Assembly (NCBI GenBank): GCA_945861565.1
Contig: CAMAUY010000016.1
Span: forward strand, 2,556-66,555
DNA: 64,000 bases
Reading direction: 5' to 3'
DNA from: Akkermansia muciniphila
Lineage (GTDB): Bacteria; Verrucomicrobiota; Verrucomicrobiia; Limisphaerales; UBA9464
Part shown: one piece after another, positions 1,050 through 45,674 of the stretch
Layout of the letters: every line of letters starts with the position of its first letter
Numbering within the stretch: position 1 is the stretch's first letter
Translations under genes and position numbers: made by a program
Notes under the pieces: model-generated
The model's input: only the letters and a program-made list of their open reading frames with translations
Database searches by the model: none
Told to the model about the DNA's origin: nothing

Positions 1050-2912
1050 TCAGAGCTTGATCGGACGCTTCAATTTAAGCTTCACGTCGAAAGTATAGGT
1101 CGGCGAATTGTCCTCTTGATTCAAATTGCCGGAAAGGACGGTCTCCTTTTCGTCAAAAAAAGGACTCGTCTTAAGTTCTTTCAGGAGATCAAACGCCAAC
1201 TCATTGTCGGCGTTCGGATTGGATTGCCGGAGACTGACGGCACGCATTGTCACCGTCACAGTGGCGACTTCGTTCGTATTTTTTTCCGGCTTTTTCGCCG
1301 CTCCCGTCCCATCGCCTGAATCAGCATCTGCCGAAGGTGCCATCATTCCCGGCATCCTTAGGCCATAACGCTTCATCAAAATTGGGTCCATGAACATCGA
1401 CCGCATCACGGGGGCCTCCTCAGCGGCCTCTTCATCCGGATTGGTGGGCTCCACAGAGAGTAATTTGTCGATCCAGACCCCGGCCGGACGTCCGAGTTTC
1501 TGCTGCGTGCCTGCCTCCGTCATCATCAACACGCGGCGAATCTCCGCAAGGATATCGCCCCAATACGTTTTCTCCCCGACAAACCCGCCCAGCAATTCGG
1601 TCTCATCGGTAGCCGCCTTAAGCTTGCCCTCCTCAGTCTTAAGCCGGTTTTCCGTATTCTGCAATGGGTCTAGCTGGACCTTGATTTCGTCCAACGCCTT
1701 TTGTTTGGCTTCCGCGACTCGAGTATTAAAGAAGCCATACGCGAAGCCGCCTAATGCGAGAGCGGCAAGAGCCCCGACGAGAAAAGGTTTCTTACTGTTG
1801 AACTCCTGTCGGGACTTCGAAGCCTTGGGAGTGAGGTCTAACTCGACCGGGCACTGGGCAATGTTACGAAGTCCGAGTCCCACGACTTCGCCAAAGCACT
1901 GAGCATATTTTTCCAGTTCGGCAACATTGACACCGGCATCCACCTGAACACTTCGAAACGGGTTGAAGTATTCGACGGGCAGGTTGAGTTTTTCCTGAAA
2001 AAACTGGGTTGCATAAGGCATGATCGAGCCCCCGCCGCAGAGATAAACCTGTGATGGCACCGAGCCACCCTGCTGAGTTCGGTAAAACTGGATCGTCTGG
2101 TTGACCTGCAAATGCAGACGGGTCAACACGTTACGGGCCACCTTCGAGACTGTCGCAAGGCGTGGGTTGTCGGGCTCTTCGTAGGCACCGCCAAGGCTGA
2201 CGAACCCGTCTGAGATCTTGAATTTCTCCGCTTCCGCAAAGGGCAGTTTGGCCTCTGCGGCAAACTCCTGAGTGACCGCATTCGCACCAATGTTGATCCC
2301 TCGGGTGTAAAACTTGTTCTTTTCAAACAGGAGCACATTACTCGTCTTCGCCCCGAGATCAATCAGGAGGGAGCATCCTTCTGCGTCGGAATAATTGAAG
2401 CGGAAGGCATTTGCCAGGGCGGCCATGGAAACATCGACCAGCTGTGTTCGCAGGCCATTGGATTCGCTCGTGCTGAACAACTTCTCGACCAAGTCCGCCT
2501 TAATGGCAACGAGAAGAACCTCCAACTCTCCACCCGTGCTCGTCCCGAGGATCTGGTAGTCCCAAACCGCCTCCGCCAAGGGAAATGGGATATTCTGTTG
2601 AGCCTCGTACTGAATAATCTGGGTGACCTTGGAGGTATCAACCGGTGGCAGTTTGATAAACTTGGAAAAGACTTGGAAGCCGGGGGCGCAGACATTGGCG
2701 TCGCGGGCCACGAAACCGCCTTCCGCAATCAATTCTGCCAGGGCTTTTTTGACGACGTTGTCACGGGCTGCGTCCTGAGACCCTGCGAGACCCAGCGGCT
2801 TCACCGCAAAACGGAGCAACTTTAGCCCCCCATCGTCGCCGGGAGCGAATTCGGCCGCCTTGAGGCAGCCGGCCCCAAAATCAACTCCGAGGATAGTCTT
2901 CGATTTTAACAT
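1050..2912 (-). CDS. pilM: Type IV pilus assembly protein PilM fused to a PilN-like C-terminal part (Amuc_1101-like)
   Basis: Actin-like N-terminus ILGVDFGAGCLKAAE, plus YEAQQNIPFPL, LIDLGAKTSNV and LCGGGS. Followed by a TM segment, coiled-coil and PilN-like beta region. Confidence 0.9.
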   Translation of the reverse strand: MLKSKTILGVDFGAGCLKAAEFAPGDDGGLKLLRFAVKPLGLAGSQDAARDNVVKKALAELIAEGGFVARDANVCAPGFQVFSKFIKLPPVDTSKVTQIIQYEAQQNIPFPLAEAVWDYQILGTSTGGELEVLLVAIKADLVEKLFSTSESNGLRTQLVDVSMAALANAFRFNYSDAEGCSLLIDLGAKTSNVLLFEKNKFYTRGINIGANAVTQEFAAEAKLPFAEAEKFKISDGFVSLGGAYEEPDNPRLATVSKVARNVLTRLHLQVNQTIQFYRTQQGGSVPSQVYLCGGGSIMPYATQFFQEKLNLPVEYFNPFRSVQVDAGVNVAELEKYAQCFGEVVGLGLRNIAQCPVELDLTPKASKSRQEFNSKKPFLVGALAALALGGFAYGFFNTRVAEAKQKALDEIKVQLDPLQNTENRLKTEEGKLKAATDETELLGGFVGEKTYWGDILAEIRRVLMMTEAGTQQKLGRPAGVWIDKLLSVEPTNPDEEAAEEAPVMRSMFMDPILMKRYGLRMPGMMAPSADADSGDGTGAAKKPEKNTNEVATVTVTMRAVSLRQSNPNADNELAFDLLKELKTSPFFDEKETVLSGNLNQEDNSPTYTFDVKLKLKRPIKL

Positions 2913-3295
2913 GTTCTGGCTCTCTCGGTCACGGGATCAACGCGACAAAAAAACTCGCCGCGGAATCCCCGCGAGCGAGCGAATTCGGAAAAGCTGATGG
3001 GTAATTAGAGAAGCGACGCGACGGGGTCAAACAGAAAAATCGAAAAACCGGAACAACCTGCTCATAAGTTTTCAATAGACGCGCCACGCAGTGATTCGAG
3101 CACGGCGGCGGCGTTTCGTCACGCACTGATCTCAAGAGTTTCTGGAGCCGGCTCGATTCGACATTGGGAAATAGCCCGGCCATCAAACTCCAGCCGCGCC
3201 CTGCCCAGAGCGCCGAAATGCTTTTCCATCTGGCGTCTTTCTTGTTTCCATGCTTGGCATGTTCAACCCGGCCCGGCTTGATCGTGTCGCTCGCC

Positions 3296-6043
3296 ATGTC
3301 CGCTGAACTCGATACTTTTGCCGTCCGCAACCTTCGTCGGTTGGCCGACCTGCTTTACCACCGGCCCGATTGGATCGTCTGGCCGCAGATTGTGCTTTTC
3401 ATCGTCGCCGTGGGGGGGACGTGGAGATTCTTAAAGCCGGACCTCGACCGCAAAAATCTGGTCGGCGCGGAGAGGCGGTACCACCGAAATTTCCAGTTGT
3501 TTAAGAAGGAATTTCCAGTCCAGGACGACTTGGTTGCGGTGGTGGAAAGCGAGGATCACGAAAAAAACAGGCAGTTCATCGAGCGACTCGGGGCCCGCCT
3601 GGAAAGCCACTCCACAACCGTTCACCCGACGAACCTGCTGACGGATGTATTCTTTAAGGGGGAACTCAAATTGATGGGGCGAAAGGCCCTACTCTTTGTT
3701 CCGGAGCGAGACCTCGAAGCGTTGAGTCGCACGATTGCCGAGTACCGCCCCTTCATCCAGCAGTTTGCCGGCGCGAGCAACCTCGCGACACTTTTCGGAT
3801 CGGTGAACCACCAGATTCGGACGGCCAAGCGGGAGGCATCGGCTGCCAACGAATCGATGGTTCGCGCCCTTCCGGCTCTGGAACGGATTATTCGTCGGGC
3901 GAATGAAAGCCTGGAGAAATCCGGCATCGCGCCCTCCCCTGGAATTGACGCCCTATTTGGCGCCGGACCGGAGGCGGAACGGGCAAAATACATCACCTTC
4001 GACCACGGTCGGATCTATATCGCCACCGCCAAGGCACGTCTTGCAGCGTTGGGTCCGGACGCCGTGGCGCTGTTTCGCCGGCTGCTGGACGAAACACACC
4101 GTGAAGTCCCCGGTGTCAACGTCGGCATTACGGGTGAACCCGTCCTGGAATACGACGAAATGCAGCAGTCTCAGCACGACTCGACCCTCGCCACTATCCT
4201 CTCTCTGGTGATCGTCGCCATTATCTTTGTCTTCGGCTACGGCGAGATCGGCCGCCCAATGAAGGCCGTGCTCTGCCTCGTGATCGGGCTGGGATATACA
4301 CTGGGCTATACGACCCTGGTAATCGGCCATCTCAACATTCTTACGATCACGTTTGTTCCCATGCTCATCGGACTGGCGATCGACTTCGGGATCCACCTGA
4401 TCACGCGCTACGAGGAAGAACTGCGCCTCGGACAAAGCCCGCGCGACGCGATGGAGAAAGCCGTTGTCAATACGGGGAATGGTATCTTCACCGGTTGCTT
4501 CACAACGGCCGGGGCATTCTTCGCGATGGCACTGACGGGTTTCAAAGGAATCCAGGAGATGGGGATCATCACGGGGGGAGGCATGCTGATCTGTCTCGTA
4601 CCCATGATGACCCTGTTGCCTGTGCTGTTGTTGCGTCGCAGCCGTCAGAACACGATCGTCCCGATGGAGGCGCGGACCGCGGCGACACCTCCGGCGAGTC
4701 CCTTGGGGGAGGCCGCCCTGGACTCACGAGCCCGATTCGAGCGTCTTTGGCTGGATCGGCCCTGGACGGTGATCGGGGTCGTTTTCGTCCTTTGTCTGCT
4801 GTCAATCGCCCGATTTCCCGTGGTGTTTTTCGACTACAACCTGCTCAACATGCAAAGTCCGAGACTCGACTCGGTGATCTTCGAAAGGAAATTGATCCGT
4901 TCGAGTGAACGTTCGGTATTATACGGGGCGATGGTGGCGAATTCCCTGTCCGAGGCCCACCAGATCGAGGAGAAGCTCCGGGCGCTTCCGTCCGTACTCA
5001 CCAACGATTCCATGGCAAAGTATCTTGGCCAGAACGCGACTGGAAAGCTGGCGCAGGTGGCCCGGATCCGTTCTGCGGTATCCGGTTTTCAGTTCGGAGA
5101 ACCCGACCTAAAGCCCGTGGAGATTAGTGAACTCAGCAACATTTTGTGGTCTCTTCAGGGGTACCTGGGACTGATTGCCGACGATCTCCGCGGCGATACG
5201 AACCAGAGCGTGCTTTTGGCCAATGCGTTGTCGCTGCGAGAAACCCTTGGAACGTTGCGGTATGCGATGCAGCAGGGAAGGAAGAGCGAGAATGCGGTCC
5301 GTTTGGGGCATTTTCAGCAGGCGCTGTTTGCGGACCTCCGGGACACCTTCGAAACCTTGCGCACGCAGGATTCCAGCTCTGGGCTGCATGCGGACGATCT
5401 GCCCCTTGCCATGCGGCACCGATTTATTGGGATTAACGGGAAACACCTGATCCAGATCTACCCGCGGCGGGATGCCTGGCAGCGCGACGCGCAAGAGGAA
5501 TTTGTTCGCGAACTCCGGACAGTGGATCCCGATGTGACGGGAACACCCGTTCAACTTCTGGAGTACACCAGCCTGCTAATGACGAGTTACGTGGAGGCGG
5601 CCGGATGGGCGCTCGCCGCCATCGTCCTTCTCGTCTACATCCATTTCCGGCGCGTGCTAAGCGTGATTCTGTCGCTCCTGCCGGTGGTGATCGGCGCAAT
5701 CTGGATGATTGGCTTCATGGGTTGGACGGGTATCCCATTTAATCCGGCGAACATCATGACCCTCCCTCTGGTCATTGGCATTGGCGTCACCAACGGCATC
5801 CATATCCTCAATCGTTTTGCGGAGGAGAAAAATCCATCGATCCTGGCAAAAAGCACCGGTAAAGCGGTCTTTGTTTCCGGTCTTACGACTATTGCGGGAT
5901 TCGGCAGCCTCTTAATCGCCGAGCACCCGGGCATTCGCAGCCTGGGCGCCGTCATGGCGGTTGGAACGACGACGTGCATGGTTGCCGGACTCACCTTCCT
6001 TCCGGCCCTACTAACGCTGTTGAACCGGCGCCGGGGTCCCTAA
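3296..6043 (+). CDS. MMPL/RND-family lipid transporter (HpnN-like)
   Basis: Two RND TM halves with GLAIDFGIH and GIGVTNGIH motifs, TGEPVL and TGTPV, and large periplasmic loops. Start set at ATG 3296 (MSAELD). Confidence 0.85.
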   Translation: MSAELDTFAVRNLRRLADLLYHRPDWIVWPQIVLFIVAVGGTWRFLKPDLDRKNLVGAERRYHRNFQLFKKEFPVQDDLVAVVESEDHEKNRQFIERLGARLESHSTTVHPTNLLTDVFFKGELKLMGRKALLFVPERDLEALSRTIAEYRPFIQQFAGASNLATLFGSVNHQIRTAKREASAANESMVRALPALERIIRRANESLEKSGIAPSPGIDALFGAGPEAERAKYITFDHGRIYIATAKARLAALGPDAVALFRRLLDETHREVPGVNVGITGEPVLEYDEMQQSQHDSTLATILSLVIVAIIFVFGYGEIGRPMKAVLCLVIGLGYTLGYTTLVIGHLNILTITFVPMLIGLAIDFGIHLITRYEEELRLGQSPRDAMEKAVVNTGNGIFTGCFTTAGAFFAMALTGFKGIQEMGIITGGGMLICLVPMMTLLPVLLLRRSRQNTIVPMEARTAATPPASPLGEAALDSRARFERLWLDRPWTVIGVVFVLCLLSIARFPVVFFDYNLLNMQSPRLDSVIFERKLIRSSERSVLYGAMVANSLSEAHQIEEKLRALPSVLTNDSMAKYLGQNATGKLAQVARIRSAVSGFQFGEPDLKPVEISELSNILWSLQGYLGLIADDLRGDTNQSVLLANALSLRETLGTLRYAMQQGRKSENAVRLGHFQQALFADLRDTFETLRTQDSSSGLHADDLPLAMRHRFIGINGKHLIQIYPRRDAWQRDAQEEFVRELRTVDPDVTGTPVQLLEYTSLLMTSYVEAAGWALAAIVLLVYIHFRRVLSVILSLLPVVIGAIWMIGFMGWTGIPFNPANIMTLPLVIGIGVTNGIHILNRFAEEKNPSILAKSTGKAVFVSGLTTIAGFGSLLIAEHPGIRSLGAVMAVGTTTCMVAGLTFLPALLTLLNRRRGP

Positions 6044-36959: not shown

Positions 36960-39900
36960 TTATCGTGTCGCGTTGTTGTTCGCCGCATCGAGGGCCTTCA
37001 TCAGGCATTCCTGAGCCTCGCGGTTGGGATCACCCGACGGCGTGTATCCGTCCTGCGACAACTGCGCTTCGGTGGCCAAGATCAACTGGCTTGCGGTCAT
37101 GAACCGGTCGGCGTTGCAACCCGGGGTCGGAATGATCGTTCCGGGCTGGTAGAACCCGTGGAGCACATTCAACTGAAAGGCCGCCAGTTGCCCCGACGTT
37201 TGGAAAGCCATGTTGACGGCGTTCCGGTCTTTCAACCAAGTCGCAAGGGCCGACTTGTTTGCCGACAAACTACCCGTGAAATCTCGGGCACTGCCATCCG
37301 GGTTTCGCAGCGAAAGCTGCGTCAGCACGGCGAAATCATTCTGAGTCTCGAGGGCTTGGCCAACCTTGTTCGACCAGAAGCCCGCCGTACAGCCACGTCC
37401 TGTCGGTGAAGGACTACTATTTGCGGCATAGCCAAAGTCCACATCACGCCGTTTTTCTTTGGCAACCAGCGTCACGGTCGCCTTGTCCAACGTCGTGATG
37501 CCATCCATATCGTACGTCGCCGTATACCCGGAGGGACGAGTGATCAGGACGGTGTACGTCCCGGCGAGCAGATTGCCAAAGGTGTAGACTCCGTCCGGCC
37601 CGCTTACCGTCGTGGCGATGGTTACATTCGCGGCATCCTTGAGCGTCAGCGAAACGCCCGCTATTCCAGGCTCCGAGGGGTCCTGCGCGGCGTTCCAGTT
37701 CGAATCCAGCCAGACCCGATCTCCAATGCTGGCTAGATCCATCAATTCTCGACACCCCAAATCGATGTTGCTCAAATCCGTCGCAAACCCAAGCGTGACT
37801 GCGGTTATCCCGGGTGTGAACACCCCGTCATAGTCGTAGGTGGGCACATAATTTTGAGGAAGCGTTACGGTTACCGAGTAGGTTCCCGGCCACAGATTCC
37901 CGAATGAATAGATCCCATTGGGTCCTGAGATCGCCGTGGCCAACACCTGACCCGCACCATCTCGTAGCGTCACGGTTGCGCCCTCAAAGCCCGCCTCATC
38001 GACATCCTGGAGACCATCGCCGTCGGTATCAATCCAGACCCGGTCGCCGATCGATGATAAAATCGGTGAGTAAATGAATCCGAAATCAACATCCGTTCGA
38101 TCTTCCCCAATTTCCAATGTCAACGTCGCCTGGTTGGCGGTGGCGATTCCATCGAAGTCATAAGTGGGGTTGTAGAAATTCGCAGGAGGAATCACCCGAA
38201 CGGTATATCGTTCCGCGGCCAATCCGTTGAACGAATAATATCCACCCGACGACGTTACATTCGTTGCCTGGGCCACGTTTAGGGCGTTGTACAAGATGAC
38301 CGTCACGCCGACGAGACCCGTCTCGGAACCATTGAGCAGCCCGTCTCCATTGGTATCTTCCCATACCCGGTCCCCGATGCTGCCCGGCGGTGGCGCGTAC
38401 AAATACCCGAAATCAATGTCGCGTCGATCCTCTCCAGCCGCCAACGCAAAGGTCGTCCGGTTGCTCGTAGTTTGCCCATCCAGAGGAATCGTATCACGGT
38501 AGTGAAACGTCTCGAGGTAGTATTGAGGCGGCACCACGCTGACAACATAATTCCCCACCAGCAGGTTCGAGAACACGTAGTAGCCGTCGGCTCCGCTGAT
38601 TTCATTTGTCAGGATGACACCCAACTGGCTGAGAATCACCGGCACTCCGGCCAGACCTGGCTCTCCGGAATCCTGGGTCCCGTTGGCATTCAGATCCTGC
38701 CAGATACGGTCACCGACCGATCCCACAGGCGGTACATAGTGATACCCAAAATCGGCATCCACCCGATCCTGGCCCGCCGCAAGAGGTACGACAGCGGTTC
38801 CCGGCGATCCCACTCCATCCAGATCATGCGTTGCAAAATGATACGCCGGAGGCAGCACCGTTACGGTGTATGATCCCGCGAGCAAGTTGTTAAAGCTGTA
38901 TGCGCCGCTCGTGTCGGTGACGGCACTCGTGATCAGACTCGCTCCCTGACGCAATTCCACAGTCACTCCACTCAACCCCGATTCATCGTTGTCCTGGACA
39001 CCATTTGCGTTCGCATCGTTCCAGACCAGATCCCCGATGGAACCGACGATCGATTGATATCCGAAGTCAATATCGGTGGGGGTTTGGTTGATTCCCATCA
39101 CCACGACTGTTTCTCCCGGCGTTCCCACCCCGTCCTGATCATACACCGCGGCGTGATTCAGAGGAGTTGTGACGCTGACGGTATACGTGCCCGAAAACAC
39201 ATTGGTGAATCCGTAGCTGCCGTTCGCCGCCGTCACCGTGGTTGCCACCTCCGTCGTTCCTTGAAGCAAGGTAACCGTGACACCCGCCAAGCCGGCTTCC
39301 CCCCCGTTCTGGACACCATTTCCATTCGCGTCCAACCAGACCAGATCCCCAATGCTTCCTGGCAATTCCTGGTAACCAAAATCGATATTGAGATTGTGTT
39401 CCCCGTCTGCCAATTCGATGAGGACCATGTTGGGTGAATCGATCACCCCATCCAAATCGTACACCGGATTGTGTCCCGCCGGCGGAGTGACCGTTACCAG
39501 ATAGGTCGATGGGGTCAGATTCTGGAAAAGGTAGGCTCCATTCGCAGCCGTCGCAATTGACTGCGTACCCCCTCCAAAGAGGTCTTCGAGAGTCACCGTC
39601 ACATTCGCTAGACTCGGTTCACCCCCGTCCCGAACACCATTGCCGTTTCGATCCAGCCACACCAGATCGCCAATCCGGCCCTGAGGTCCCGCGTTTTGCG
39701 TCTGACGGTAACCGAAGTCCACCTCGGTCCGAGCCGCGCCGGCGGCCAAAATGACGACCGCCACACTCGGCGTGTTGGTTCCGTCGAAATCAAACGTGGC
39801 ATTATATCCCGGCGGTCCCCCGGCGCTTACCGTGTACGTGCCGGCAATAACACCGGTGAGGGAATACTGCCCGTTGGCGGCCGTTACCGCGGTATACGTC

Positions 39901-42266
39901 CCGCCGGGACCGGATGCCGTAACGGTTACACCCGACAACCCCGGTTCACCCAGTTCGGGGGCTCCGTTGCCGTTCAGGTCGTTCCACACCAAGTCTCCGA
40001 TCGACGCCAACTGTTGGTACCCAAAGTCAACATCCGTCCGCGTTACCCCCGCCACAAGGGTCACCACAGACGAGTTGGGCGCCGGCACCAGTAGCCCATC
40101 CAAATCGTAGGTCGGGACGTATCCCGTCGGCTGCCCGGCCGACACGGTGTAGGTTCCCGCCGGGAGGTTTGTGAACATATAATGGCCGTTGAGATCGGTC
40201 ACCTGGGCACCCACCAAATTGTTCAGCGCATTGAATGCCTGCACCGTGACACCCTCCAACCCGGCTTCACCGCCGTCCTGAAGCCCGTTGCCGTTGCTAT
40301 CGCTCCAAACTCGATCGCCGAGCCCCCATCCCCCTCCCCCCTGGTTACCGCCATCGTCACCTCTTTCCTTGTAGCCAAAATCGACATCCATGCGGTCCTC
40401 ACCCACCGCCAAGTTGACGCTCGCCTGATTGGTGGATCCCAAGCCATCGATGTCGTAAGTCGGCACAAACCCGGTTCCACTGAGGGTCACTTCCACTCGA
40501 TAGGTATCGGGGCCCAAATCGCCAAAGGTATAGAATCCGGTGGCATCGGACGTCGTCACCCCAAGGGAAATCCCCCCGATGAACAGTTCCACCACCGCTC
40601 CCGGGATGCCCAATTCTCCACCCTCTTGTAACCCGTTCCCGTTCGCGTCATTCCAAATTCGATCCCCCAAACTCGCCCGGTCATAACCGAAATCGACGTT
40701 GGCTCGCGCTTGCGCCCCTCCGAGGATGATCTGCGTGCAGTTCGGCGTTCCAAGCCCGTCCAGATCGTAGGTCGGCGCGTACCCTCCAGGCAGGTCGGTC
40801 TTGACCAGATACACTCCGGCGAAAAGCGATTCGAAACCGTAGTTTCCGCTGGCATCCGTCGTCCATGACCCGATCTCGTTCAAGGGATCAGCCGCCGAAT
40901 AAATGTGCACCACGACACCGGGGATTCCCGACTCCCCAGGATCCTGAACTCCATCCCGATCCCGGTCATTCCAGACAAGGCCCCCGATTGACGCATCATA
41001 CGTTTGATACCCAAAGTCGATCTCAAGCTGATTTTCACCGGGACTGAGGGGATATCCCACCTCATTCGGAGTCAGGGTTCCGTCGTAATCCGTTGTAGGA
41101 AATCCCGCCACCGGGGGATTCAAGACAACCACGGTGTACCAAGCGGACGGCAGATTTGTGAAGATGTAGAAGCCATTCGCGTCCGTGACCTGCTGGGCCA
41201 GATCGGCCAAGGATTCGTCGCGGAGAACAACGCTCACCCCGGCAATTCCCGGCTCACCGGGGCTCTGGAGTCCGTCCCCGTCATTGTCGTACCAAACCCG
41301 ATCTCCGATGCTCCCAACGTCGGTGCTGACCGGTACGGTGTACCCAAAATCCACGTTCAACATGTCCTGGCCAGTGACACACGTAAACGACGCTTCGTTC
41401 GCAGTGTTGGTTCCGTCCAAATCATAGTTTGGGGAAAAAATCGGCGGTGGATAAACGTGCACGCGGTAGTTGCCCGCTGGAACATCTCGGAACAAGTAAG
41501 CACCCGTCCAGTCGGTCACCTGCGGCAGTACTCCCGCAACCGGTGCGCCCGCCTCATCCAGCATTGTCACCACCGCTCCACCGATTCCCGGCTCTCCCCC
41601 ATCGATCGCTCCGTCACCGTTCAAATCGTTCCAAACAATATCTCCGACAAACGAATCCCGGGGTTCATAGATATACTCCAGTTCCACTGCGGCCGCCGAG
41701 GATGTCCGCAGTATTTTCGTCAATTCAGCCCCACCTGAGGCCGTCGATGCTGAGGAGGCATCCACCGTAAGCGCAATCGTCCCCGGTCCCGCAAACAAAG
41801 TCAGATCACCGCTCGGCGCCACCGAATTGGTGGTCCGCGACGCGGAGGATCCCAAATCCAGCAACGTAACTCCGGAATCTCCACCGAAATCAGTCACGCC
41901 ATCATACGCCAGAAGCTGGCGCGTCACAGAGGTCTGCGCGGTCACCCCGACAAGCACCGAGCCGTCAGGCCGTCGCACAGTCACCGTGGCGCCGACTGCA
42001 ATCGACACCGTCACCGGTGCGTTCAAATCACGATTCTCGATTTGCGCCGAACCCACCGCCAAATCGGTCACCGTCACCCGCACCTTCCTCAGGGTCCCCA
42101 AACTGGTATCGAATTTGTTAAACGGAAACGCGTTCGTCCAATCGACCGGTGTCTGAAACACACTCTGCGACTGAGAGACCGACAATTCCACGGATGCCTG
42201 CAGATTCGCAGTCGTTGCCGACAGGAAGCAGGCGACACCTAAAACAGTCGCGCCCGCGGAACGCAA
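36960..42266 (-). CDS. Giant secreted protein: choice-of-anchor E-like N-domain + 13 SdrD B-like repeats + distinct C-terminal domain
   Basis: 13 copies of (I/V/L)GDxVWxDxNGxG...DxDFGY (Ca-binding SdrD B-like); N-domain FDTSLGTLRKV; C-domain GCTAGFWSN. The start is uncertain (TTG). Confidence 0.88.
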   Translation of the reverse strand: MRSAGATVLGVACFLSATTANLQASVELSVSQSQSVFQTPVDWTNAFPFNKFDTSLGTLRKVRVTVTDLAVGSAQIENRDLNAPVTVSIAVGATVTVRRPDGSVLVGVTAQTSVTRQLLAYDGVTDFGGDSGVTLLDLGSSASRTTNSVAPSGDLTLFAGPGTIALTVDASSASTASGGAELTKILRTSSAAAVELEYIYEPRDSFVGDIVWNDLNGDGAIDGGEPGIGGAVVTMLDEAGAPVAGVLPQVTDWTGAYLFRDVPAGNYRVHVYPPPIFSPNYDLDGTNTANEASFTCVTGQDMLNVDFGYTVPVSTDVGSIGDRVWYDNDGDGLQSPGEPGIAGVSVVLRDESLADLAQQVTDANGFYIFTNLPSAWYTVVVLNPPVAGFPTTDYDGTLTPNEVGYPLSPGENQLEIDFGYQTYDASIGGLVWNDRDRDGVQDPGESGIPGVVVHIYSAADPLNEIGSWTTDASGNYGFESLFAGVYLVKTDLPGGYAPTYDLDGLGTPNCTQIILGGAQARANVDFGYDRASLGDRIWNDANGNGLQEGGELGIPGAVVELFIGGISLGVTTSDATGFYTFGDLGPDTYRVEVTLSGTGFVPTYDIDGLGSTNQASVNLAVGEDRMDVDFGYKERGDDGGNQGGGGWGLGDRVWSDSNGNGLQDGGEAGLEGVTVQAFNALNNLVGAQVTDLNGHYMFTNLPAGTYTVSAGQPTGYVPTYDLDGLLVPAPNSSVVTLVAGVTRTDVDFGYQQLASIGDLVWNDLNGNGAPELGEPGLSGVTVTASGPGGTYTAVTAANGQYSLTGVIAGTYTVSAGGPPGYNATFDFDGTNTPSVAVVILAAGAARTEVDFGYRQTQNAGPQGRIGDLVWLDRNGNGVRDGGEPSLANVTVTLEDLFGGGTQSIATAANGAYLFQNLTPSTYLVTVTPPAGHNPVYDLDGVIDSPNMVLIELADGEHNLNIDFGYQELPGSIGDLVWLDANGNGVQNGGEAGLAGVTVTLLQGTTEVATTVTAANGSYGFTNVFSGTYTVSVTTPLNHAAVYDQDGVGTPGETVVVMGINQTPTDIDFGYQSIVGSIGDLVWNDANANGVQDNDESGLSGVTVELRQGASLITSAVTDTSGAYSFNNLLAGSYTVTVLPPAYHFATHDLDGVGSPGTAVVPLAAGQDRVDADFGYHYVPPVGSVGDRIWQDLNANGTQDSGEPGLAGVPVILSQLGVILTNEISGADGYYVFSNLLVGNYVVSVVPPQYYLETFHYRDTIPLDGQTTSNRTTFALAAGEDRRDIDFGYLYAPPPGSIGDRVWEDTNGDGLLNGSETGLVGVTVILYNALNVAQATNVTSSGGYYSFNGLAAERYTVRVIPPANFYNPTYDFDGIATANQATLTLEIGEDRTDVDFGFIYSPILSSIGDRVWIDTDGDGLQDVDEAGFEGATVTLRDGAGQVLATAISGPNGIYSFGNLWPGTYSVTVTLPQNYVPTYDYDGVFTPGITAVTLGFATDLSNIDLGCRELMDLASIGDRVWLDSNWNAAQDPSEPGIAGVSLTLKDAANVTIATTVSGPDGVYTFGNLLAGTYTVLITRPSGYTATYDMDGITTLDKATVTLVAKEKRRDVDFGYAANSSPSPTGRGCTAGFWSNKVGQALETQNDFAVLTQLSLRNPDGSARDFTGSLSANKSALATWLKDRNAVNMAFQTSGQLAAFQLNVLHGFYQPGTIIPTPGCNADRFMTASQLILATEAQLSQDGYTPSGDPNREAQECLMKALDAANNNATR

Positions 42267-42312
42267 TAGAGATAGCCCGGAAAATACGGACGCGAAAGAA
42301 CCCCAGCGGCTC

Positions 42313-42365
42313 GGTAGGGGGTACTGCCACGCGTCGAAGCCGGACGGACGGCAGGCCGCCCTACC
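42313..42365. repeat. GTAG-type REP-like palindrome
   Basis: GGTAGGGGGTACTGCC...GGCAGGCCGCCCTACC, followed by GTTCATGGGCA (cassette-end-like). Confidence 0.6.
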
Positions 42366-42854
42366 CCGTTCATGGGCAACACTGCCCGCAGCAAATCAAA
42401 CGTACTGAGAGGAGATTTCATAAGTATTCCGTTATTGTGTGTTTTGACCATGACACGTCTTTGGTTCTGGGTATTGTGCGGGATTTCGGCCTGAAAAATC
42501 TGAAAAATGGCTAATTCTAGACGGAATCCGCGTTTAGATGCCTTCGGACACCGATTTTATGCGTCGCGGGAAGTTCATTTCTGAAATCCATAGTATCGCG
42601 AGATGTTTTCAATTCAATAATAAAATTCCAACAAATTGCCGCATCAGAGGTTGATTCATGGTTTATTTAAATCTTTAATCATTTGTATCTCATTTATTAT
42701 TAACAGATTAACTATACTTTAAAGCCGAAAAACGGTCCTCAACACCAGGTTGCGTGGCCTCATTTTTGGTTTGAGATCGACCCAATTGTTCCACCGTTCC
42801 CATGAAAATATGCCTCTCGGAACACCAAATAAGGCACATCACATATTGAAGAAT

Positions 42855-43334
42855 TTTGGAAAACCTCGCTCTCCATGAACCGACTCCCTGGGAGCGCTGG
42901 CATCCTGCCGGCGAGCCTGCAGAAAGGACCAACACCCGCCGGCAGGGATGCCGGCGCTCCCAGGTTCATGGTCTTAATTCATGTCCATTCTTTGGAAAAC
43001 ATTCCTACCCATGAACCGGCTCCATTTCCCAATTCGAGGACGAAGAACGAGCGCGACGGACGAGGACGATTTGAAGGACCCCATTGCGGCGCTTTCGCCC
43101 TCGTCCTCGTCCTTCGTCCTTCGTCCGTCGATGGCGACGAACAGCACACCGGCCTATGTGCCGGGACGCACGGAGCGCGGTTCATGGTCACAATTCATGT
43201 CCATTCTTTGGAAAACTTTCCTACCCATGAACCGCCCCCTCTCCCTGCCCTCCCCCGCTCCGAGCGGGGGAGAGGGGGGGGCTTCGGTTCATGACATCAC
43301 GGCGCGCATTGTTAAGTTCGGTGGGTTCTCTCCC
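42855..43334. repeat. Array of 55-nt GGTTCATG-N39-CATGAACC repeats separating three unrelated palindromic cargos
   Basis: Full repeats at 42963-43017 and 43179-43233 (52/55 identical), a partial repeat at 42855-42881, and a divergent terminal unit at 43286-43334. Cargos are 81, 161 and 52 nt. Confidence 0.9.
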
Positions 43335-43336
43335 GG

Positions 43337-43804
43337 TCACGGCTTAGCCACCGCGCGAAGGCGGAAAAATGTGGCGCTGTTTTCCCGCGGGAGCGTCACT
43401 TGGAATTCGTTGCCGACGGGCTGCGGATTCACCGGAAGGATCTGCCACGTGGAGGGATCCGCGAGATCACGAGAACGTTCGAGCGTAAAGGCACCGGCTG
43501 CCACCGGCCAGGCGAGTACCAGCAATTCACCGATGCGCCCGGCGGAAAGCACCGGCTTCGCGACCACCGGCACCGCGGTCGGGCCAGGCCAGAAACCGGC
43601 CTGCAGAGTGAACGAACCCCCACTCGCCTCCCCCGCATCCGGTTGACCCAGGGTGGCGTTCAGTTCAAAAGTACCCCCTCTTGCTGTGCCACCCCCGGCA
43701 TCAATGCTGATCCAGTCGAGACGGAACGCGTCCGCAGTCTGCCCACCAAGGGAGGTCAGTAGCATCAGCAAAGCCGCAGGTATTTGGCGTATTCGTGAAT
43801 TCAT
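43337..43804 (-). CDS. Small secreted protein with a GQPDAG motif and a verrucomicrobial FFRL-type C-terminal domain
   Basis: Signal peptide, WISIDAGGG...LGQPDAG...LQAGFW, and C-terminal LAWP...TLERS.DL...W...FFRL. Confidence 0.8.
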   Translation of the reverse strand: MNSRIRQIPAALLMLLTSLGGQTADAFRLDWISIDAGGGTARGGTFELNATLGQPDAGEASGGSFTLQAGFWPGPTAVPVVAKPVLSAGRIGELLVLAWPVAAGAFTLERSRDLADPSTWQILPVNPQPVGNEFQVTLPRENSATFFRLRAVAKP

Positions 43805-43832
43805 GGCAGCGAAGGTTTTGGGGGCAAGTTCA

Positions 43833-45674
43833 TTACCAGGCGACTTCAGCGGTTTGGAGGCGAGCCACCCAGCGCACCACATCCGGCGTCCCCGCACTGT
43901 TAACGCCAATCACGAGGCTGCCAGGGCCGGCCGTCACTTGGACACTCCAGGCCGGATCATCCTCACCCAACTCGGTAACGGTCGGGGTTCCGACAAAGCT
44001 GGCCGTCCCTCCCACGTTCTTGATGACCCCCCGTACCGCATAACCGCCTGAGACGGAAAAATTGGGCGGGACACCCGCACTTCGACCGGCCACGAGAATC
44101 TCAAACGTCCGCGTGCGGCCAACTCCGATTCCCAGCGGCAGGCCGAGGCCATTGAGTGAAAGTGACGTCAAGGGGTTGACGATGGACGTTTGGCCGCGGA
44201 GCACGAACACGGATGTCTGCGCGTCGCCGGGCGAACTGAAATCACCGGCGGACTGCGCCATCTGCCCGTGCTGGTCAGCCAACGCCTGGGCTCCGCCCGG
44301 AATGATGGAGTACGGCCCCGTTGCGAAATTGGCGTTCCCGCCGGCCACGGTGGCGTGCGCCGCTCGAGCCTGATTGCCGACACCCCCTCCAACCGTTGCA
44401 CCGAACTGTTGCGCCAAGTTTTCGCCCCCACCACTGACCGTGCTGAGGTCAAGTTCCGCCCGGTTCCCCACGCCGCCACTTGTGGTCGCTCCCGCTCCGG
44501 CCGCGAGATTGCCCCCGCCGCCACCCACGGTAGATTGATCAAAATGCGCGGCATTGTCCTGGCCGCCCGAAACCGTCGATGCCACTCCATCGGCAACGTT
44601 CTGCCGGCCCCCTCCCACCGTGGCGTGCTCCCTGGCGGCCTGGTTAAGCGATCCTCCGGCAACAACCGATACGAAACCCGACGCAAAATTCTGTGTGCCG
44701 CCACTCACGATCGAGTAGCCGTTGGTGGCGGAATTTCCTAGGCCGCCAGCCACGGTCGCAGCCACGCCGCTCGCCGTGTTGCTCATTCCGCCACCAATGA
44801 ACGCGTAATTGGCACTGGCCAGATTGATGTTGCCCGCGCTGCCGCCCCCGCCAATGACGACACCGACCGCTCCAGTCACGACATTTCCGAAGTAGCCACC
44901 GACGAGGTTGGGACTCAGGCCGGCCGGTGTGATCAGCAGAGCCCGGGCATTGCCAACCCGCACCTCGATCGAGCGCTGGTCTGTGGTGCCGAGGAAGTCC
45001 GAGGCCGTTGTCCCGGCGTTGCCCGCGAGTAACCACGCCGGCCCGGGAGCCGGCACGATCGAGAACTTCGTGCCCGCCTGCACCGCCACGATCCCGCTGA
45101 CCGTCGCGGGCAGAATCGTCCCGACCAGCGCGGACGGAGTGAGCCCTCCGGGGGTAATCGAGGCCGCCGCCGCCGCACGGATCGCGGTGGGCGCCGGGGT
45201 AATCCGGATGGCTGGCAGCAGAGTGACAAATCCGGCCGGTGGCGCAGCGGGACGTGCCTGTCCGCCCAAACGATCGGTGGCACTGGCGGCGACGATCGCG
45301 GTGGAACTTACGGCGACTTCGAGATACCGGCCGTCATCCTGGGACTCACCATTGGCGGAGTAGAATACGTCGAAGAACGCCGGTCGGAAATGAACCTCGG
45401 TGGCGAAGAGTCCGTCCTGAACGGGCACCGCCGGGCGAAGATACTCGGCGAGGGCTTCGCCCTTGGGCCCGCTCCGCAACGTGAAGTAAAAATCGTAGAG
45501 TCCCGTCGCCGGCTTGCCTTCCTGTGATAGCTTACCCTGGACGGTGAATCCGATGTCCTGTGAGTAGACGCCGACACAGGCACAGACCAGGGTCGCGATC
45601 GCGAAAAACCAGCGAGGCACCCTTGGATGGATGGAGGCCGCAGGCTGCGGTAGATGTGAGTGTTGGGTCTTCAT
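43833..45674 (-). CDS. Secreted fibre/adhesin-like protein with 14-aa glycine-rich repeats
   Basis: Signal peptide; N-domain FTVQGKL..G.PATGLYDF.F.L; W.LAGNAGT..FLGTTD; more than ten xTVxGGxxNxAxxx repeats. Confidence 0.8.
   Translation of the reverse strand: MKTQHSHLPQPAASIHPRVPRWFFAIATLVCACVGVYSQDIGFTVQGKLSQEGKPATGLYDFYFTLRSGPKGEALAEYLRPAVPVQDGLFATEVHFRPAFFDVFYSANGESQDDGRYLEVAVSSTAIVAASATDRLGGQARPAAPPAGFVTLLPAIRITPAPTAIRAAAAASITPGGLTPSALVGTILPATVSGIVAVQAGTKFSIVPAPGPAWLLAGNAGTTASDFLGTTDQRSIEVRVGNARALLITPAGLSPNLVGGYFGNVVTGAVGVVIGGGGSAGNINLASANYAFIGGGMSNTASGVAATVAGGLGNSATNGYSIVSGGTQNFASGFVSVVAGGSLNQAAREHATVGGGRQNVADGVASTVSGGQDNAAHFDQSTVGGGGGNLAAGAGATTSGGVGNRAELDLSTVSGGGENLAQQFGATVGGGVGNQARAAHATVAGGNANFATGPYSIIPGGAQALADQHGQMAQSAGDFSSPGDAQTSVFVLRGQTSIVNPLTSLSLNGLGLPLGIGVGRTRTFEILVAGRSAGVPPNFSVSGGYAVRGVIKNVGGTASFVGTPTVTELGEDDPAWSVQVTAGPGSLVIGVNSAGTPDVVRWVARLQTAEVAW

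What the first reader, a model, noticed from the sequence alone, without database searches (positions are those of the whole stretch)
42855..43334. Cassette array: 55-nt repeats alternating with three unrelated palindromic cargos
Seen: the repeat GGTTCATGGTC(TT/AC)AATTCATGTCCATTCTTTGGAAAAC(A/T)TTCCTACCCATGAACC occurs at 42963-43017 and 43179-43233 (52/55 identical). It has its own 9-bp terminal inverted repeat, GGTTCATGG/CCATGAACC. A 3' half-repeat lies at 42855-42881, and a divergent unit at 43286-43334 keeps the 39-40 nt linker length and a CT(C/A)CC-like end. The three intervening sequences share nothing with each other, yet each is self-complementary. (1) 81 nt with GGAGCGCTGGCATCCTGCCGGC/GCCGGCAGGGATGCCGGCGCTCC arms (GGAG REP-like). 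(2) 161 nt with inverted GACGAG/CTCGTC micro-repeats. (3) 52 nt of the CCCTCTCCC/GGGGAGAGGG type. Inference: the layout resembles a CRISPR or integron array, but the payloads are other repeat families. This suggests a carrier unit (linker + CATGAACC...GGTTCATG) that captures palindromic elements and integrates in tandem at its own end. I know of no named system with this architecture.
Basis: partly seen in the sequence, partly recalled or inferred. Interest (0 to 1): 0.85.

Follow-up and report, generated by a model that had tools for sequence, protein, structure and literature searches.

The report
Hairpin-plus-leader repeats that land on start codons
The array is a tandem cluster of small mobile DNA units, each a hairpin plus a short leader ending in ATG, that in this group of bacteria insert exactly at gene start codons and hand the gene a new one.

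Summary
The 55-mer (L) occurs at 42963-43017 and 43179-43233, alternating with three unrelated hairpins, and shuffles give no such match. It is not a local oddity. L has 53 copies in this genome, and all three "cargos" (A, B, C) and the "divergent unit" (D, at least 17 copies) are repeat families that combine in variable order.

Comparison with two sister species gave 11 filled/empty site pairs. In 10, a block of one to three units had been inserted immediately after the ATG start codon of a gene. A unit reads AACC, hairpin, GGTTCATGG, leader, CCCATG, so its last three bases become the new start codon. An outgroup shows 3 of 4 tested events are gains.

In this genome, 12 of 36 array-terminal L copies start long ORFs at L's own ATG. 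All 10 of these that were scanned have Pfam domains.

Each unit ends in its own target, which would explain tandem arrays.

The L family occurs in 30 of 151 sampled genomes of the order. The order-wide consensus carries a GGAGGT motif 12 nt before the ATG.

The window's own array fronts no gene and sits at a synteny break.

The mobilising enzyme is unknown. The closest known analogues are REP/BIME mosaics and Neisseria REP2.

The parts
42855..42877 (+). 3' half of an L-type leader, ending in CTCTCCATG. Its ATG (42875-42877) is the site after which unit 1 begins.
   Evidence: (family D2). Homology with the sister species G002 ends about 10 nt to the left, at window 42843.
42878..43013 (+). Unit 1 (136 nt): AACC + hairpin module A (42882-42962, two inverted REP-like arms) + L copy 1 up to its ATG (43011-43013).
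   Evidence: (pair I4). Copies of A that are 100% identical occur at G000:C33, C174 and C212.
43014..43229 (+). Unit 2 (216 nt): AACC + hairpin module B (43018-43178) + L copy 2 up to its ATG (43227-43229).
   Evidence: (pairs I3, I5). The block A-L-B-L recurs at 97% identity at G000:C33:43321-43684.
43230..43285 (+). AACC + hairpin module C (43234-43285, of the CCCTCTCCC/GGGAGAGGG type).
   Evidence: (pairs I1, I6, I8).
43286..43334 (+). Module D, a second linker family. It starts GGTTCATG but has no terminal ATG, and it closes the array.
   Evidence: at least 17 copies in G000 at E below 0.001, each following a hairpin module. Also seen in G001 and G002.
42873..42971 (+). Long hairpin 1. Base stem CCATGAACC (42873-42881) pairs with GGTTCATGG (42963-42971).
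   Evidence: minimum-energy and centroid structures.
43009..43187 (+). Long hairpin 2. Base stem CCATGAACC (43009-43017) pairs with GGTTCATGG (43179-43187).
43225..43293 (+). Long hairpin 3. Base stem CATGAACC (43226-43233) pairs with GGTTCATG (43286-43293).
   Evidence: (pair I1).
43337..43909 (-). Flanking ORF (190 aa, no Pfam family) whose stop codon lies 3 nt beyond the array. The array therefore fronts no + strand gene.
   Evidence: The orthologous flank in G002 aligns from window 43328 onward.
36960..42266 (-). Flanking gene (1768 aa, SdrD B-like and carboxypeptidase-regulatory-like repeats). Its AT-rich upstream region (about 42580-42760) separates it from the array.
   Evidence: A promoter-like site lies at 42723 to 42696 on the - strand.

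Best explanation
The window holds a tandem cluster of small non-autonomous mobile units that are typical of this verrucomicrobial order.

**Anatomy of a unit.** Read 5' to 3', a unit is:
- AACC(G);
- a GC-rich hairpin module from one of several interchangeable families (A, B, C here; a GTAG-tagged REP in the sister species G001);
- GGTTCATGG;
- a linker of about 37 nt, AT-rich in this genus;
- CCCATG.

**Shown.**
- Units, singly or in blocks of two or three, are present or absent between related genomes exactly after an ATG that is the start codon of a gene, in the orientation of that gene.
- CATG is repeated at both ends of the block, and the last three bases of the block serve as the gene's start codon.
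- Where an outgroup was read, most of these events are gains.

**Inferred.**
- The element is cut and joined at (C)CATG^.
- Because every unit ends in that sequence, later insertions land at unit ends and build arrays of variable order.
- The old ATG ends up in the base stem of the new hairpin (CCATGAACC pairs with GGTTCATGG). The linker then offers an unstructured leader and a fresh ATG. The order-wide form also has a Shine-Dalgarno-like GGAGGT. Insertion at the most sensitive point of a gene would therefore be nearly harmless.
- The window's own array ends in a D module against the 3' end of a convergent ORF and lies where synteny with G002 breaks. It is most likely a relic left by a rearrangement and does not drive a gene.

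**Enzyme.** It is not identified. My working guess, about one in three, is a single-strand HUH (Y1) transposase acting on the hairpin, as proposed for REP/BIME and IS200/IS605-derived elements.
For: **Dispersed families with variable grammar.**
- There are 53 L copies at E below 0.001.
- Deduplicated near-full copies number A 25, B 25 and C 14.
- Array orders differ between loci: A-L-B-L-C-D in the window; B-L-B-L-B at C31; B-L-A-L at C174; A-L-C at C9; B-L-C at C7, C108 and C237.

**Left junction.** By my reading, about 52 of 64 hairpin copies are preceded by CATGAACC or a variant of it (a mismatch or a single-base gap), including where the upstream DNA is unique.

**Filled versus empty sites.**
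- Eleven pairs were read at base level. In 10, the block sits directly after a gene's ATG and ends in ...CATG.
- The inserts were C+L, A+L, C+L, C+L, B+L, A+L, C+L, two units, three units, and a 1.39-kb block ending in B+L.

**Polarity.** With G001 as outgroup, 3 of 4 sites are empty in both G001 and G000 and filled in G002, so these are gains.

**L's ATG is a start codon.**
- Of the 36 L copies not followed by a hairpin module, 12 have ORFs of 166-713 aa starting at L's ATG.
- Ten of those 12 were scanned and all 10 have Pfam domains.
- Several domains begin at the very N-terminus: LpxI_N aligns residues 1-121 to profile positions 2-122, Rossmann folds start at residues 4-9, and MFS_1 starts at residue 17.

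**Structure.** Three long hairpins with conserved base stems, z = -9.7.

**No L-L junction without a hairpin** was found in G000: 0 matches at up to 1 mismatch.

**Spread.**
- The L core gives 59 matches in G001 and 44 in G002, against 0-1 for the reversed control pattern.
- A profile of L finds matches in 30 of 151 genomes of the order, in 28 of 108 genera.
- The same hairpin/linker architecture was read in G119, G074 and G023.
- In an alignment of 15 copies from outside the genus, 12 have TGGAGGT 12 nt before the ATG.
Against: - No cognate enzyme was found.
- The multi-copy 322-aa Y1 genes have inverted-repeat ends of their own, and no A, B, C or L module lies within 3 kb of them except in two cases.
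- That Y1 family is not co-distributed with L. It was not found in the L-bearing genomes G021, G022, G023 and G028.
- One of the 11 pairs (L050 against C102) is not at an ATG. It looks like a truncated copy between convergent gene ends.
- One of the 4 polarised sites holds a degenerate AACC...CTCTATG insert in the outgroup, so precise loss also seems to occur.
- The window's own array fronts no gene.
- 21 of the 36 terminal L copies have only short frames, or no start codon, after L's ATG position.
- The simple scan found no sigma-70-like promoter and no intrinsic terminator in the array.
- The sequestration idea was tested on two diverged natural copies and held in only one. In L043 the old AUG is paired and the new one free in the centroid (z -5.7). 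In L045 it is not (z -1.6).
- All the genomes are draft assemblies from metagenomes, and no contig of the four runs laid spans the window's array.
Confidence: 0.75

Rival explanations
1. This is an integron-like system. The hairpins with their AAC...GTT-bearing ends are attC-like sites, the 37-nt linkers are minimal cassettes, and an integron integrase (IntI) moves them.
For: - The hairpins are 70-180 nt imperfect palindromes with conserved ends and variable interiors.
- G000 has an intact integron integrase at C119:13302-14231, scoring 393 bits against a cut-off of 265.
- G000 also has a degraded integrase at C179:386-974, whose 3' end lies about 30-40 nt from a B-L-A-D array.
- In the order sample, IntI is found in 17 of 30 L-bearing genomes against 42 of 121 others. 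This is my hand count.
- One insert carries a whole gene plus B+L.
Against: - The crossover cannot lie at the canonical G|TT (AA|C). In at least 3 of 10 events the bases after the ATG differ between the left and right junctions, so the exchange lies at or before ATG|.
- The flanks do not fit RYYYAAC/GTTRRRY beyond the AAC/GTT triplets.
- No CATGAACC or GGTTCATG motif lies on the contig of the intact intI in G000, or in the 3-kb stretch read around that of G002.
- L-rich genomes gave no IntI hit: G001 (59 L copies, 93% complete), and G074, G091, G106, G142 and G150.
- In the listed part, none of the L matches I checked lies on an IntI contig.
Confidence: 0.1
2. This is not a mobile element. L is a conserved regulatory leader of a regulon, the hairpins are ordinary REP-like structures, and similarity is kept up by selection and by gene conversion between 5' regions.
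For: - L sits at true gene starts.
- The order-wide consensus has a Shine-Dalgarno-like motif.
- No transposase could be tied to it.
- L has two direct copies and one inverted copy of TTCATG, as an operator might.
Against: - Whole units are gained at sites that are empty in two other species.
- The boundaries are precise and flanked by a repeated CATG.
- Arrays of up to three or four units occur with no gene between or after them.
- The genes served are unrelated in function: LpxI, an MFS transporter, DUF1501, a hydrolase, a methyltransferase.
- Copies within one genome are up to 96-100% identical while orthologous flanks between the species are 83-93% identical.
Confidence: 0.1
3. This is a classical cut-and-paste MITE. 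The hairpin alone (AACC...GGTT) is the element, with terminal inverted repeats and a 4-bp CATG target duplication made by a DDE transposase. L is only the preferred target.
For: Every hairpin is bounded as CATG|AACC...GGTT|CATG, which looks like inverted ends plus a palindromic 4-bp duplication.
Against: - In 10 of 10 start-codon events the linker came in together with the hairpin. No event added a hairpin alone.
- No hairpin-free L-L junction exists in G000.
- No insertion sequence with matching ends was found. The most abundant long repeat is an IS481/IS3-like element.
Confidence: 0.1
4. This is a CRISPR-like array or a structured RNA gene.
For: A regular repeat alternates with unrelated inserts. 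A contig from an RNA library covers 42976-43221.
Against: - The "spacers" measure 52-161 nt and are themselves repeat families found all over the genome.
- The repeats are dispersed singly in front of genes.
- Rfam gives only sub-threshold microRNA-hairpin look-alikes, 21-29 bits against cut-offs of 54-100.
Confidence: 0.02

Closest known systems
REP sequences and BIMEs (bacterial interspersed mosaic elements) with RAYT/Y1 transposases
   Same: Short GC-rich extragenic palindromes occur in many copies and cluster into mosaics in which palindromes alternate with a few conserved linker motifs. Copy number and order vary between relatives. One module in G001 carries the canonical GTAG tag next to its stem. 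REPs regularly embedded in a longer palindromic repeat are on record (PMC3733652, section 7, read).
   Different: The linker here ends in an ATG that is used as a start codon, and units are found inserted exactly at start codons. Hairpins in an array all face the same way instead of alternating. The window's modules A and C have no GTAG or CGTC tag. No Y1 gene is flanked by these modules. Copy numbers are tens, not hundreds.
Neisseria REP2 repeats and the similar Borrelia IR sequences
   Same: These are dispersed repeats of 120-150 bp with 5' stem-loops. They lie immediately upstream of unrelated ORFs and contribute the ribosome-binding site and the ATG itself. Their way of spreading is called an open question (PMC3184786, sections 11-12, read).
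   Different: REP2 is described there as having no terminal inverted repeats and no link to REPs, and no tandem arrays or empty-site evidence are mentioned. Here the hairpin part is modular and REP-like, units stack in tandem, and base-level empty sites define the insertion point. Sequence relatedness to REP2 was not tested, because no REP2 sequence was at hand.
Integron attC sites, cassette arrays, and attC clusters that lack an integrase
   Same: Arrays of imperfect palindromes have variable length and interior but conserved ends carrying AAC...GTT. The unit boundary falls inside the conserved end, so each site is split between neighbours. Integron integrase genes are present in the lineage.
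   Different: The crossover point is not G|TT. The material between hairpins is a 37-nt leader rather than an ORF, with one exception. There is no attI or intI next to arrays apart from one degraded intI. L-rich genomes occur without IntI hits.
IS200/IS605-derived hairpin MITEs and REPINs (single-strand HUH transposition)
   Same: The elements are non-autonomous and hairpin-bearing. They have no inverted unit ends and insert on the 3' side of a short specific sequence in one orientation. Y1 genes are present in all 30 of 30 L-bearing genomes of the order sample, against 99 of 121 others (my hand count).
   Different: The unit's own 3' end repeats the target sequence. No parent element with the same ends was found. 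The abundant Y1 genes of this genome sit in elements with different inverted-repeat ends, like the TIR-associated tyrosine transposases (TIRYT) described in PMC3733652.

Membership tests
REP/BIME | Short imperfect palindromes, many extragenic copies | tested here: met
   A, B and C are hairpins with 25, 25 and 14 near-full copies. Each arm of A is itself an imperfect palindrome. Copy numbers are tens rather than hundreds.
REP/BIME | Conserved GTAG (or CGTC) tetranucleotide at one end of the palindrome | tested here: not met
   Neither tag flanks the stems of A or C in the window. The hairpin module of G001 does carry GTAG next to its stem, so the feature is met only by some modules.
REP/BIME | Clusters in which palindromes alternate in orientation and are separated by conserved linker motifs | tested here: inconclusive
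   Conserved linkers (L, D) between palindromes are present. Modules in an array keep one orientation rather than alternating.
REP/BIME | A cognate RAYT gene flanked by the same REPs | tested here: not met
   There are 13 Y1_Tnp hits. None has A, B or C flanking it; within 3 kb only one L and one partial C were seen. The best NCBIfam match is the REP tyrosine transposase model, but below cut-off: 47-57 bits against 80. Six paralogues have their own GTGACAGGTTCAAT-type inverted ends.
Neisseria REP2-type repeat | The repeat lies immediately upstream of unrelated ORFs and its ATG is the start codon | tested here: met
   12 of 36 terminal L copies start long ORFs. 10 of 10 scanned have Pfam domains, and in several the match starts at or close to the first residues. 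10 of 11 insertion sites are at start codons.
Neisseria REP2-type repeat | The repeat carries a ribosome-binding site and a promoter | tested here: inconclusive
   GGAGGT lies 12 nt before the ATG in 12 of 15 copies from outside the genus, but the window's subfamily has GGAAAAC there. No sigma-70-like site was found in the array, and that scan does not cover other promoter types.
Neisseria REP2-type repeat | Sequence homology to REP2 | not tested
The resemblance is one of organisation only.
Integron cassette array / attC | Palindromic sites ending in RYYYAAC ... GTTRRRY | tested here: not met
   The ends are CATGAAC ... GTTCATG. Only the AAC and GTT triplets fit.
Integron cassette array / attC | Cassette boundary at G|TT of the 3' core site | tested here: not met
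   Junctions lie at or before ATG|. The bases after the ATG differ between left and right junctions in L043, L045 and L049.
Integron cassette array / attC | An integron integrase with attI next to the array | tested here: not met
   The intact intI (C119) has no such motifs on its contig. Only a degraded intI abuts an array (C179). G001 has 59 L copies and no IntI hit.
IS200/IS605-type hairpin MITE | Insertion 3' of a short specific target, no inverted ends, fixed orientation | tested here: met
   In 10 of 11 events the block begins right after (C)CATG and lies in the gene's orientation. The unit ends AACC... and ...CCCATG are not inverted repeats of each other.
IS200/IS605-type hairpin MITE | A parent element encoding a Y1 transposase with the same ends | tested here: not met
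   None was found among the 13 Y1 loci.
IS200/IS605-type hairpin MITE | Bias towards the lagging-strand template | not testable with these tools
   The draft has 262 contigs, so replication direction is unknown.
CRISPR array | Unique spacers of uniform length between identical repeats | tested here: not met
   The inserts measure 81, 161 and 52 nt, and each is a multi-copy family.

The most novel reading that the evidence does not exclude
These units may be the visible product of a so-far undescribed site-specific recombination system of the order. It would recognise a folded hairpin with the invariant CCATGAACC/GGTTCATGG base and exchange strands at CATG, with translation start codons as its natural landing sites. 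Because a unit restores the start codon and brings its own leader, the system could shuffle leaders upstream of any gene. The 1.39-kb insert that carries a whole gene plus B+L suggests it could also shuffle whole genes. That would make it a cassette platform anchored at ATG rather than at an attI site.
Probability: 0.2. Interest if true: 0.9.

Novelty: new variant of a known kind. Interest (0 to 1): 0.68.

Why it matters
A start codon is about the worst place for a mobile element to land. These units seem to have solved that by carrying a replacement ATG and leader, and by base-pairing with the old ATG. That is a different route to harmlessness from self-splicing introns or in-frame palindromic elements.

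The finding gives base-level insertion sites for a kind of repeat whose way of spreading is called an open question for Neisseria REP2. That question becomes testable.

There are practical consequences:
- Start codons and 5' regions in this order are easily mis-annotated.
- Many contig ends of these assemblies fall inside the modules.
- The unit is a natural, portable translation-start cassette.

Tried and rejected
- **Rfam.** A scan of 41500-44500 at E up to 1 gave only microRNA-precursor look-alikes far below their cut-offs. No known RNA family fits.
- **CRISPR.** Rejected because the inserts are themselves repeats.
- **Promoter and terminator scan.** Nothing was found inside the array. This neither shows nor excludes a promoter of another type.
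- **Orthologous locus in G002.** The two flanks lie on two different contigs, with other genes next to them and no array. This gives a synteny break rather than a clean empty site for the window's own array. In G001 the right flank starts at a contig end.
- **Public reads.** The four runs are held as contigs that break inside the repeats. None spans the array, and the joints listed come from other copies of the modules. A 246-nt contig from an RNA library covers 42976-43221, which does not show transcription.
- **Y1 family of 322 aa as mobiliser.** Not co-distributed with L.
- **Pfam Y1_Tnp.** Present in 129 of 151 genomes, so nearly uninformative.
- **IntI as mobiliser.** Disfavoured by crossover position, lack of adjacency and phyletic pattern.
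- **Most abundant long repeat in G000.** It is an IS481/IS3-like element, judged by eye from the translated ORF. I recall that family's usual target as a different sequence, and I did not link it to L.
- **Exact-match scan of 185,579 species genomes for the genus-type L core.** It found only two MAG records plus one chance hit inside an AT-rich coding region. The profile search was needed to see the order-wide family.
- **RNA folds of two natural filled sites.** They gave mixed support for sequestration of the old AUG.
- **Tool failures.** The script machine was lost. As a result three planned steps were not run:
  - a background model of start-codon contexts;
  - a full tally of arrays against downstream genes;
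  - a script-based check of A-like copies in other genera.

  The last was replaced by reading a few loci by eye. Counts taken were made by hand.
- **Papers.** Additional files of PMC3733652 list REP families of Verrucomicrobia and Planctomycetes and might already include some of these hairpin modules.
- **Literature searches** found no description of these units. Most subscription-journal papers are not in that library.
Full report
**1. Observation**

The sequence is as described.
- Two 55-nt copies, here called L, lie at 42963-43017 and 43179-43233 and are identical at 52 of 55 positions.
- A 27-nt 3' half copy lies at 42855-42881.
- Three unrelated, self-complementary stretches of 81, 161 and 52 nt lie between them.
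- The pattern GGTTCATG-N35..45-CATGAACC is found twice in the window and never in 100 shuffles.
- As a single strand, 42850-43340 folds into three long hairpins at -126.2 kcal/mol, z = -9.7. The base stems are CCATGAACC paired with GGTTCATGG, and the middles of L stay unpaired.

**2. Nothing in the array is unique to it**

The window lies on contig C16 of a 5.9-Mb draft of 262 contigs.
- L has 53 copies at E below 0.001 on many contigs.
- The three "cargos" are repeat families too. Near-full, deduplicated copies number A 25, B 25 and C 14.
- The "divergent unit" 43286-43334 is a fourth family, D. It has at least 17 copies, each following a hairpin module.
- The modules combine in many orders:
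  - L-half, A, L, B, L, C, D in the window;
  - A-L-B-L-x-L'-B-L-C on C33;
  - B-L-B-L-B on C31;
  - B-L-A-L on C174;
  - A-L-C on C9;
  - B-L-C on C7, C108 and C237.
- The block A-L-B-L of the window recurs at 97% identity on C33.
- By my reading, about 52 of 64 hairpin copies are preceded by CATGAACC or a variant of it (a mismatch or a single-base gap), even where the DNA further upstream is unique. Most are followed by GGTTCATGG plus L or D.

**3. L ends in a real start codon**

- Of the 53 L copies, 17 are followed directly by another hairpin module and 36 are not.
- Among the 36, 12 have ORFs of 166-713 aa that begin at L's own ATG (positions 49-51 of L).
- Two more run off contig ends.
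- One long frame (C33:43321) I rejected because it runs through further repeat modules.
- The other 21 have only short frames, or no start codon at that place.
- I scanned 10 of the 12 against Pfam, leaving out C23 and C225. All 10 are ordinary genes.
- Several domains start at the very N-terminus. LpxI_N aligns residues 1-121 to profile positions 2-122. Rossmann folds start at residues 4-9. MFS_1 starts at residue 17. Others begin after signal peptides.

**4. Filled and empty sites**

L is shared by the two other species of the genus.
- The core pattern, with up to 3 mismatches, gives 59 matches in G001 and 44 in G002.
- The reversed control pattern gives 0 and 1.

I fetched 40 L-bearing stretches: 34 from G002 and 6 from G001. 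I mapped their flanks onto G000. Eleven pairs could be read at base level.
- In 10 of them the species with L has a block that the other lacks.
- The block starts right after the ATG of an ORF (...YCCATG|AACC...).
- It lies in the orientation of that ORF and ends ...CCCATG|, followed by the second codon of the same ORF.
- The blocks were C+L, A+L, C+L, C+L, B+L, A+L, C+L, two units, three units, and a 1.39-kb block.
- The 1.39-kb block consists of a leader, a 361-aa ORF and B+L.
- CATG is repeated at the two ends.
- In one case the repeat extends to 12 nt, because the gene itself begins CCCCATGCACCG, which is close to L's end plus AACCG.
- The eleventh pair (L050 against C102) is a truncated C+L without ATG between convergent gene ends.

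Other loci differ in the modules upstream of a shared, gene-proximal L.

With G001 as outgroup, the sites of L045, L049 and L056 are empty at the ATG in both G001 and G000 and filled in G002, so these are gains. The L043 site carries a degenerate AACC...CTCTATG insert in G001.

**5. What the unit is**

The boundaries define a unit that reads AACC(G), hairpin, GGTTCATGG, linker of about 37 nt, CCCATG.
- In window coordinates, unit 1 is 42878-43013, unit 2 is 43014-43229, and a third hairpin plus D is 43230-43334.
- The unit's ends are not inverted repeats of each other.
- The inverted 9-mers instead clamp each hairpin. The left one is made of the target's CCATG plus the unit's AACC.
- Because a unit ends in CCATG, it recreates its own target. 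I take this to be the origin of the arrays; that step is an inference.
- No L-L junction without a hairpin exists in G000 (0 matches).
- In none of the 10 events did a hairpin arrive without a linker. Hairpin and linker therefore travel together.

**6. Likely function of the parts (inferred)**

- After insertion the old ATG lies in the base stem of a strong hairpin, and a new ATG follows an AT-rich, unpaired leader.
- In the order-wide form of L, 12 of 15 aligned copies from other families carry TGGAGGT 12 nt before the ATG.
- The genus subfamily has TGGAAAAC at that place.
- The simple scan finds no sigma-70-type promoter and no intrinsic terminator in the array. Transcripts from the native promoter may simply read through.
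- RNA folds of two diverged natural insertions gave mixed results. In L043 the old AUG is paired and the new one free in the centroid (z -5.7). In L045 this is not so (z -1.6).

**7. Spread**

- An exact scan of one genome per species (185,579 species) for the genus-type core found it only in two MAG records plus one chance hit. One record is titled Pedosphaera sp., and the other carries the name of another verrucomicrobial genus.
- A profile built from 21 copies found L in 30 of 151 sampled genomes of the order, in 28 of 108 genera.
- Arrays with the same grammar were read in G119, G074 and G023.
- A-like hairpins occur in other families too:
  - with CCATTGAACC...GGTTCATGG flanks in G022;
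  - without them in one G023 copy.

**8. The window's own locus**

- The array lies between two genes on the minus strand, so it fronts no gene.
- In G002 the left flank (up to window 42843) and the right flank (from 43328) lie on different contigs, next to other genes, without an array.
- I read the array as a relic at a rearrangement point.
- Contigs of four public runs confirm both flanks at 100% in one run but break inside the repeats. Summed depth there is about 5 to 100 times that of the flanks, as expected for multi-copy modules.

**9. Enzyme**

It is not found.
- G000 has 13 Y1_Tnp hits. They are proteins of about 320 aa, closest to the REP tyrosine transposase model but below its cut-off.
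- Six paralogues sit in elements of 1.1-1.7 kb with inverted ends of their own. These resemble the TIR-associated tyrosine transposases (TIRYT) of PMC3733652 (passages read).
- That Y1 family occurs in 14 of 31 relatives. It was not found in the L-bearing genomes G021, G022, G023 and G028.
- Any Y1_Tnp domain is present in all 30 of 30 L-bearing genomes and in 99 of 121 others.
- An intact integron integrase lies on C119 without any of the motifs nearby.
- A degraded integrase on C179 ends about 30-40 nt from a B-L-A-D array.
- IntI is found in 17 of 30 L-bearing genomes against 42 of 121 others (hand count).
- IntI is missing from the L-rich genomes G001, G074, G091, G106, G142 and G150.
- The crossover point does not fit G|TT.

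**10. Comparison with what is known**

- **BIME mosaics.** REPs with conserved linkers share the mosaic grammar. REPs regularly lying inside longer palindromic repeats do so too (PMC3733652, section 7 read whole and passages).
- **Neisseria REP2 and Borrelia IR repeats.** They share the fusion of a repeat's ATG to unrelated ORFs and the 5' stem-loops, and their mode of spread is stated to be unknown (PMC3184786, section 11 read whole and passages).
- **Reused "mobile promoters".** This idea I saw only as a search listing and the start of an abstract (PMC3575422).
- **REPIN/RAYT papers.** I saw these only as listings.
- **What I recall rather than read.** Details of integron attC sites, of IS200/IS605 and of IS91 come from my own knowledge.
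- **What seems new here:**
  - the base-level demonstration that units land on start codons and replace them;
  - the modular hairpins;
  - the tandem stacking;
  - the order-wide spread.
- Four literature searches found no description of it.

**11. Limits**

- All genomes are draft assemblies from metagenomes.
- The polarity of most events is not known.
- Counts after one search were made by hand because the script machine was lost.
- Supplementary files of papers could not be read.

Noticed in passing
G000:C119:13302-14231 (+) and G000:C179:386-974 (-): There is an intact integron integrase gene (393 bits, cut-off 265) with no cassette-like motifs seen around it. A second, degraded copy lacks the middle of the protein and has a TGA. 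Its 3' end lies about 30-40 nt from a B-L-A-D array at the start of contig C179. Integron integrases are common in the order: 59 of 151 genomes at E up to 1e-50.
   Followed up: partly
G000:C90:743-1977, C49:14214-15285, C61:1165-2259, C191:6738-8003, C181:7590-8646, C29:35588-36642: A multi-copy element carries a 322-aa Y1 (HUH) transposase-like gene, bounded by its own inverted repeats of the GTGACAGGTTCAAT type. It has up to 41 matches in relatives such as G005, so it looks like an active insertion sequence of this bacterial family.
   Followed up: partly
L062 (G002:C222), locus positions 2027-3418, against G000:C64 around 6957: A 1.39-kb block is present in G002 and absent in G000, flanked by direct CCATGAAT. 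It holds a short leader, a 361-aa ORF that by eye looks like a formylglycine-generating-enzyme family protein (not scanned), then TTG|AACC-B-L. It could be a gene-carrying unit, or a deletion between two CCATGAA sites.
   Followed up: partly
L positions 19-21 (window 42981-42983 and 43197-43199): The best-conserved part of the genus-type L contains a second ATG (TTCATGTCC). Among the 12 gene-adjacent copies it does one of the following: opens a 10-codon frame ending at the TGA that overlaps the main ATG(A) in 5; is in frame with the main ATG in 2; stops early in 2; is mutated in 2; runs past the ATG in another frame in 1. This is my reading. It may be a small upstream ORF.
   Followed up: no
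L034 (G002:C51), locus positions 2225-2556: A 332-nt repeat, 92-96% identical to eight or more places in G000 (C18:62525, C13:33323, C8:9487, C4:62166 and 87437, C1:109542, C28:43982, C29:27454). Its nature was not examined.
   Followed up: no
G000:C182:7616-8586, C249:2742-3709, C20:18757-19600 and about nine more: This is the most abundant long repeat of the genome (10-12 copies of 0.8-1.1 kb). It encodes a protein that by eye looks like an IS481/IS3-type integrase-core transposase.
   Followed up: partly
window 36960-42266 (-): A giant 1768-aa protein has 13 SdrD B-like and 12 carboxypeptidase-regulatory-like repeats. Its AT-rich upstream region borders the array.
   Followed up: no
G000:C245:8-58 and 1413-1466, C9:92-142, C199:7380-7430: Two paralogous FAD-dependent oxidoreductase genes lie in tandem, each preceded by its own L copy. 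In the first, L's start position is GTG and the frame is only 85 aa, so it may be broken. Several contigs end inside this repeat.
   Followed up: no
window 42976-43221: A 246-nt contig from a metatranscriptome library (coded run X11) covers part of L1, all of B and part of L2 with 4 differences. DNA carry-over cannot be excluded.
   Followed up: no
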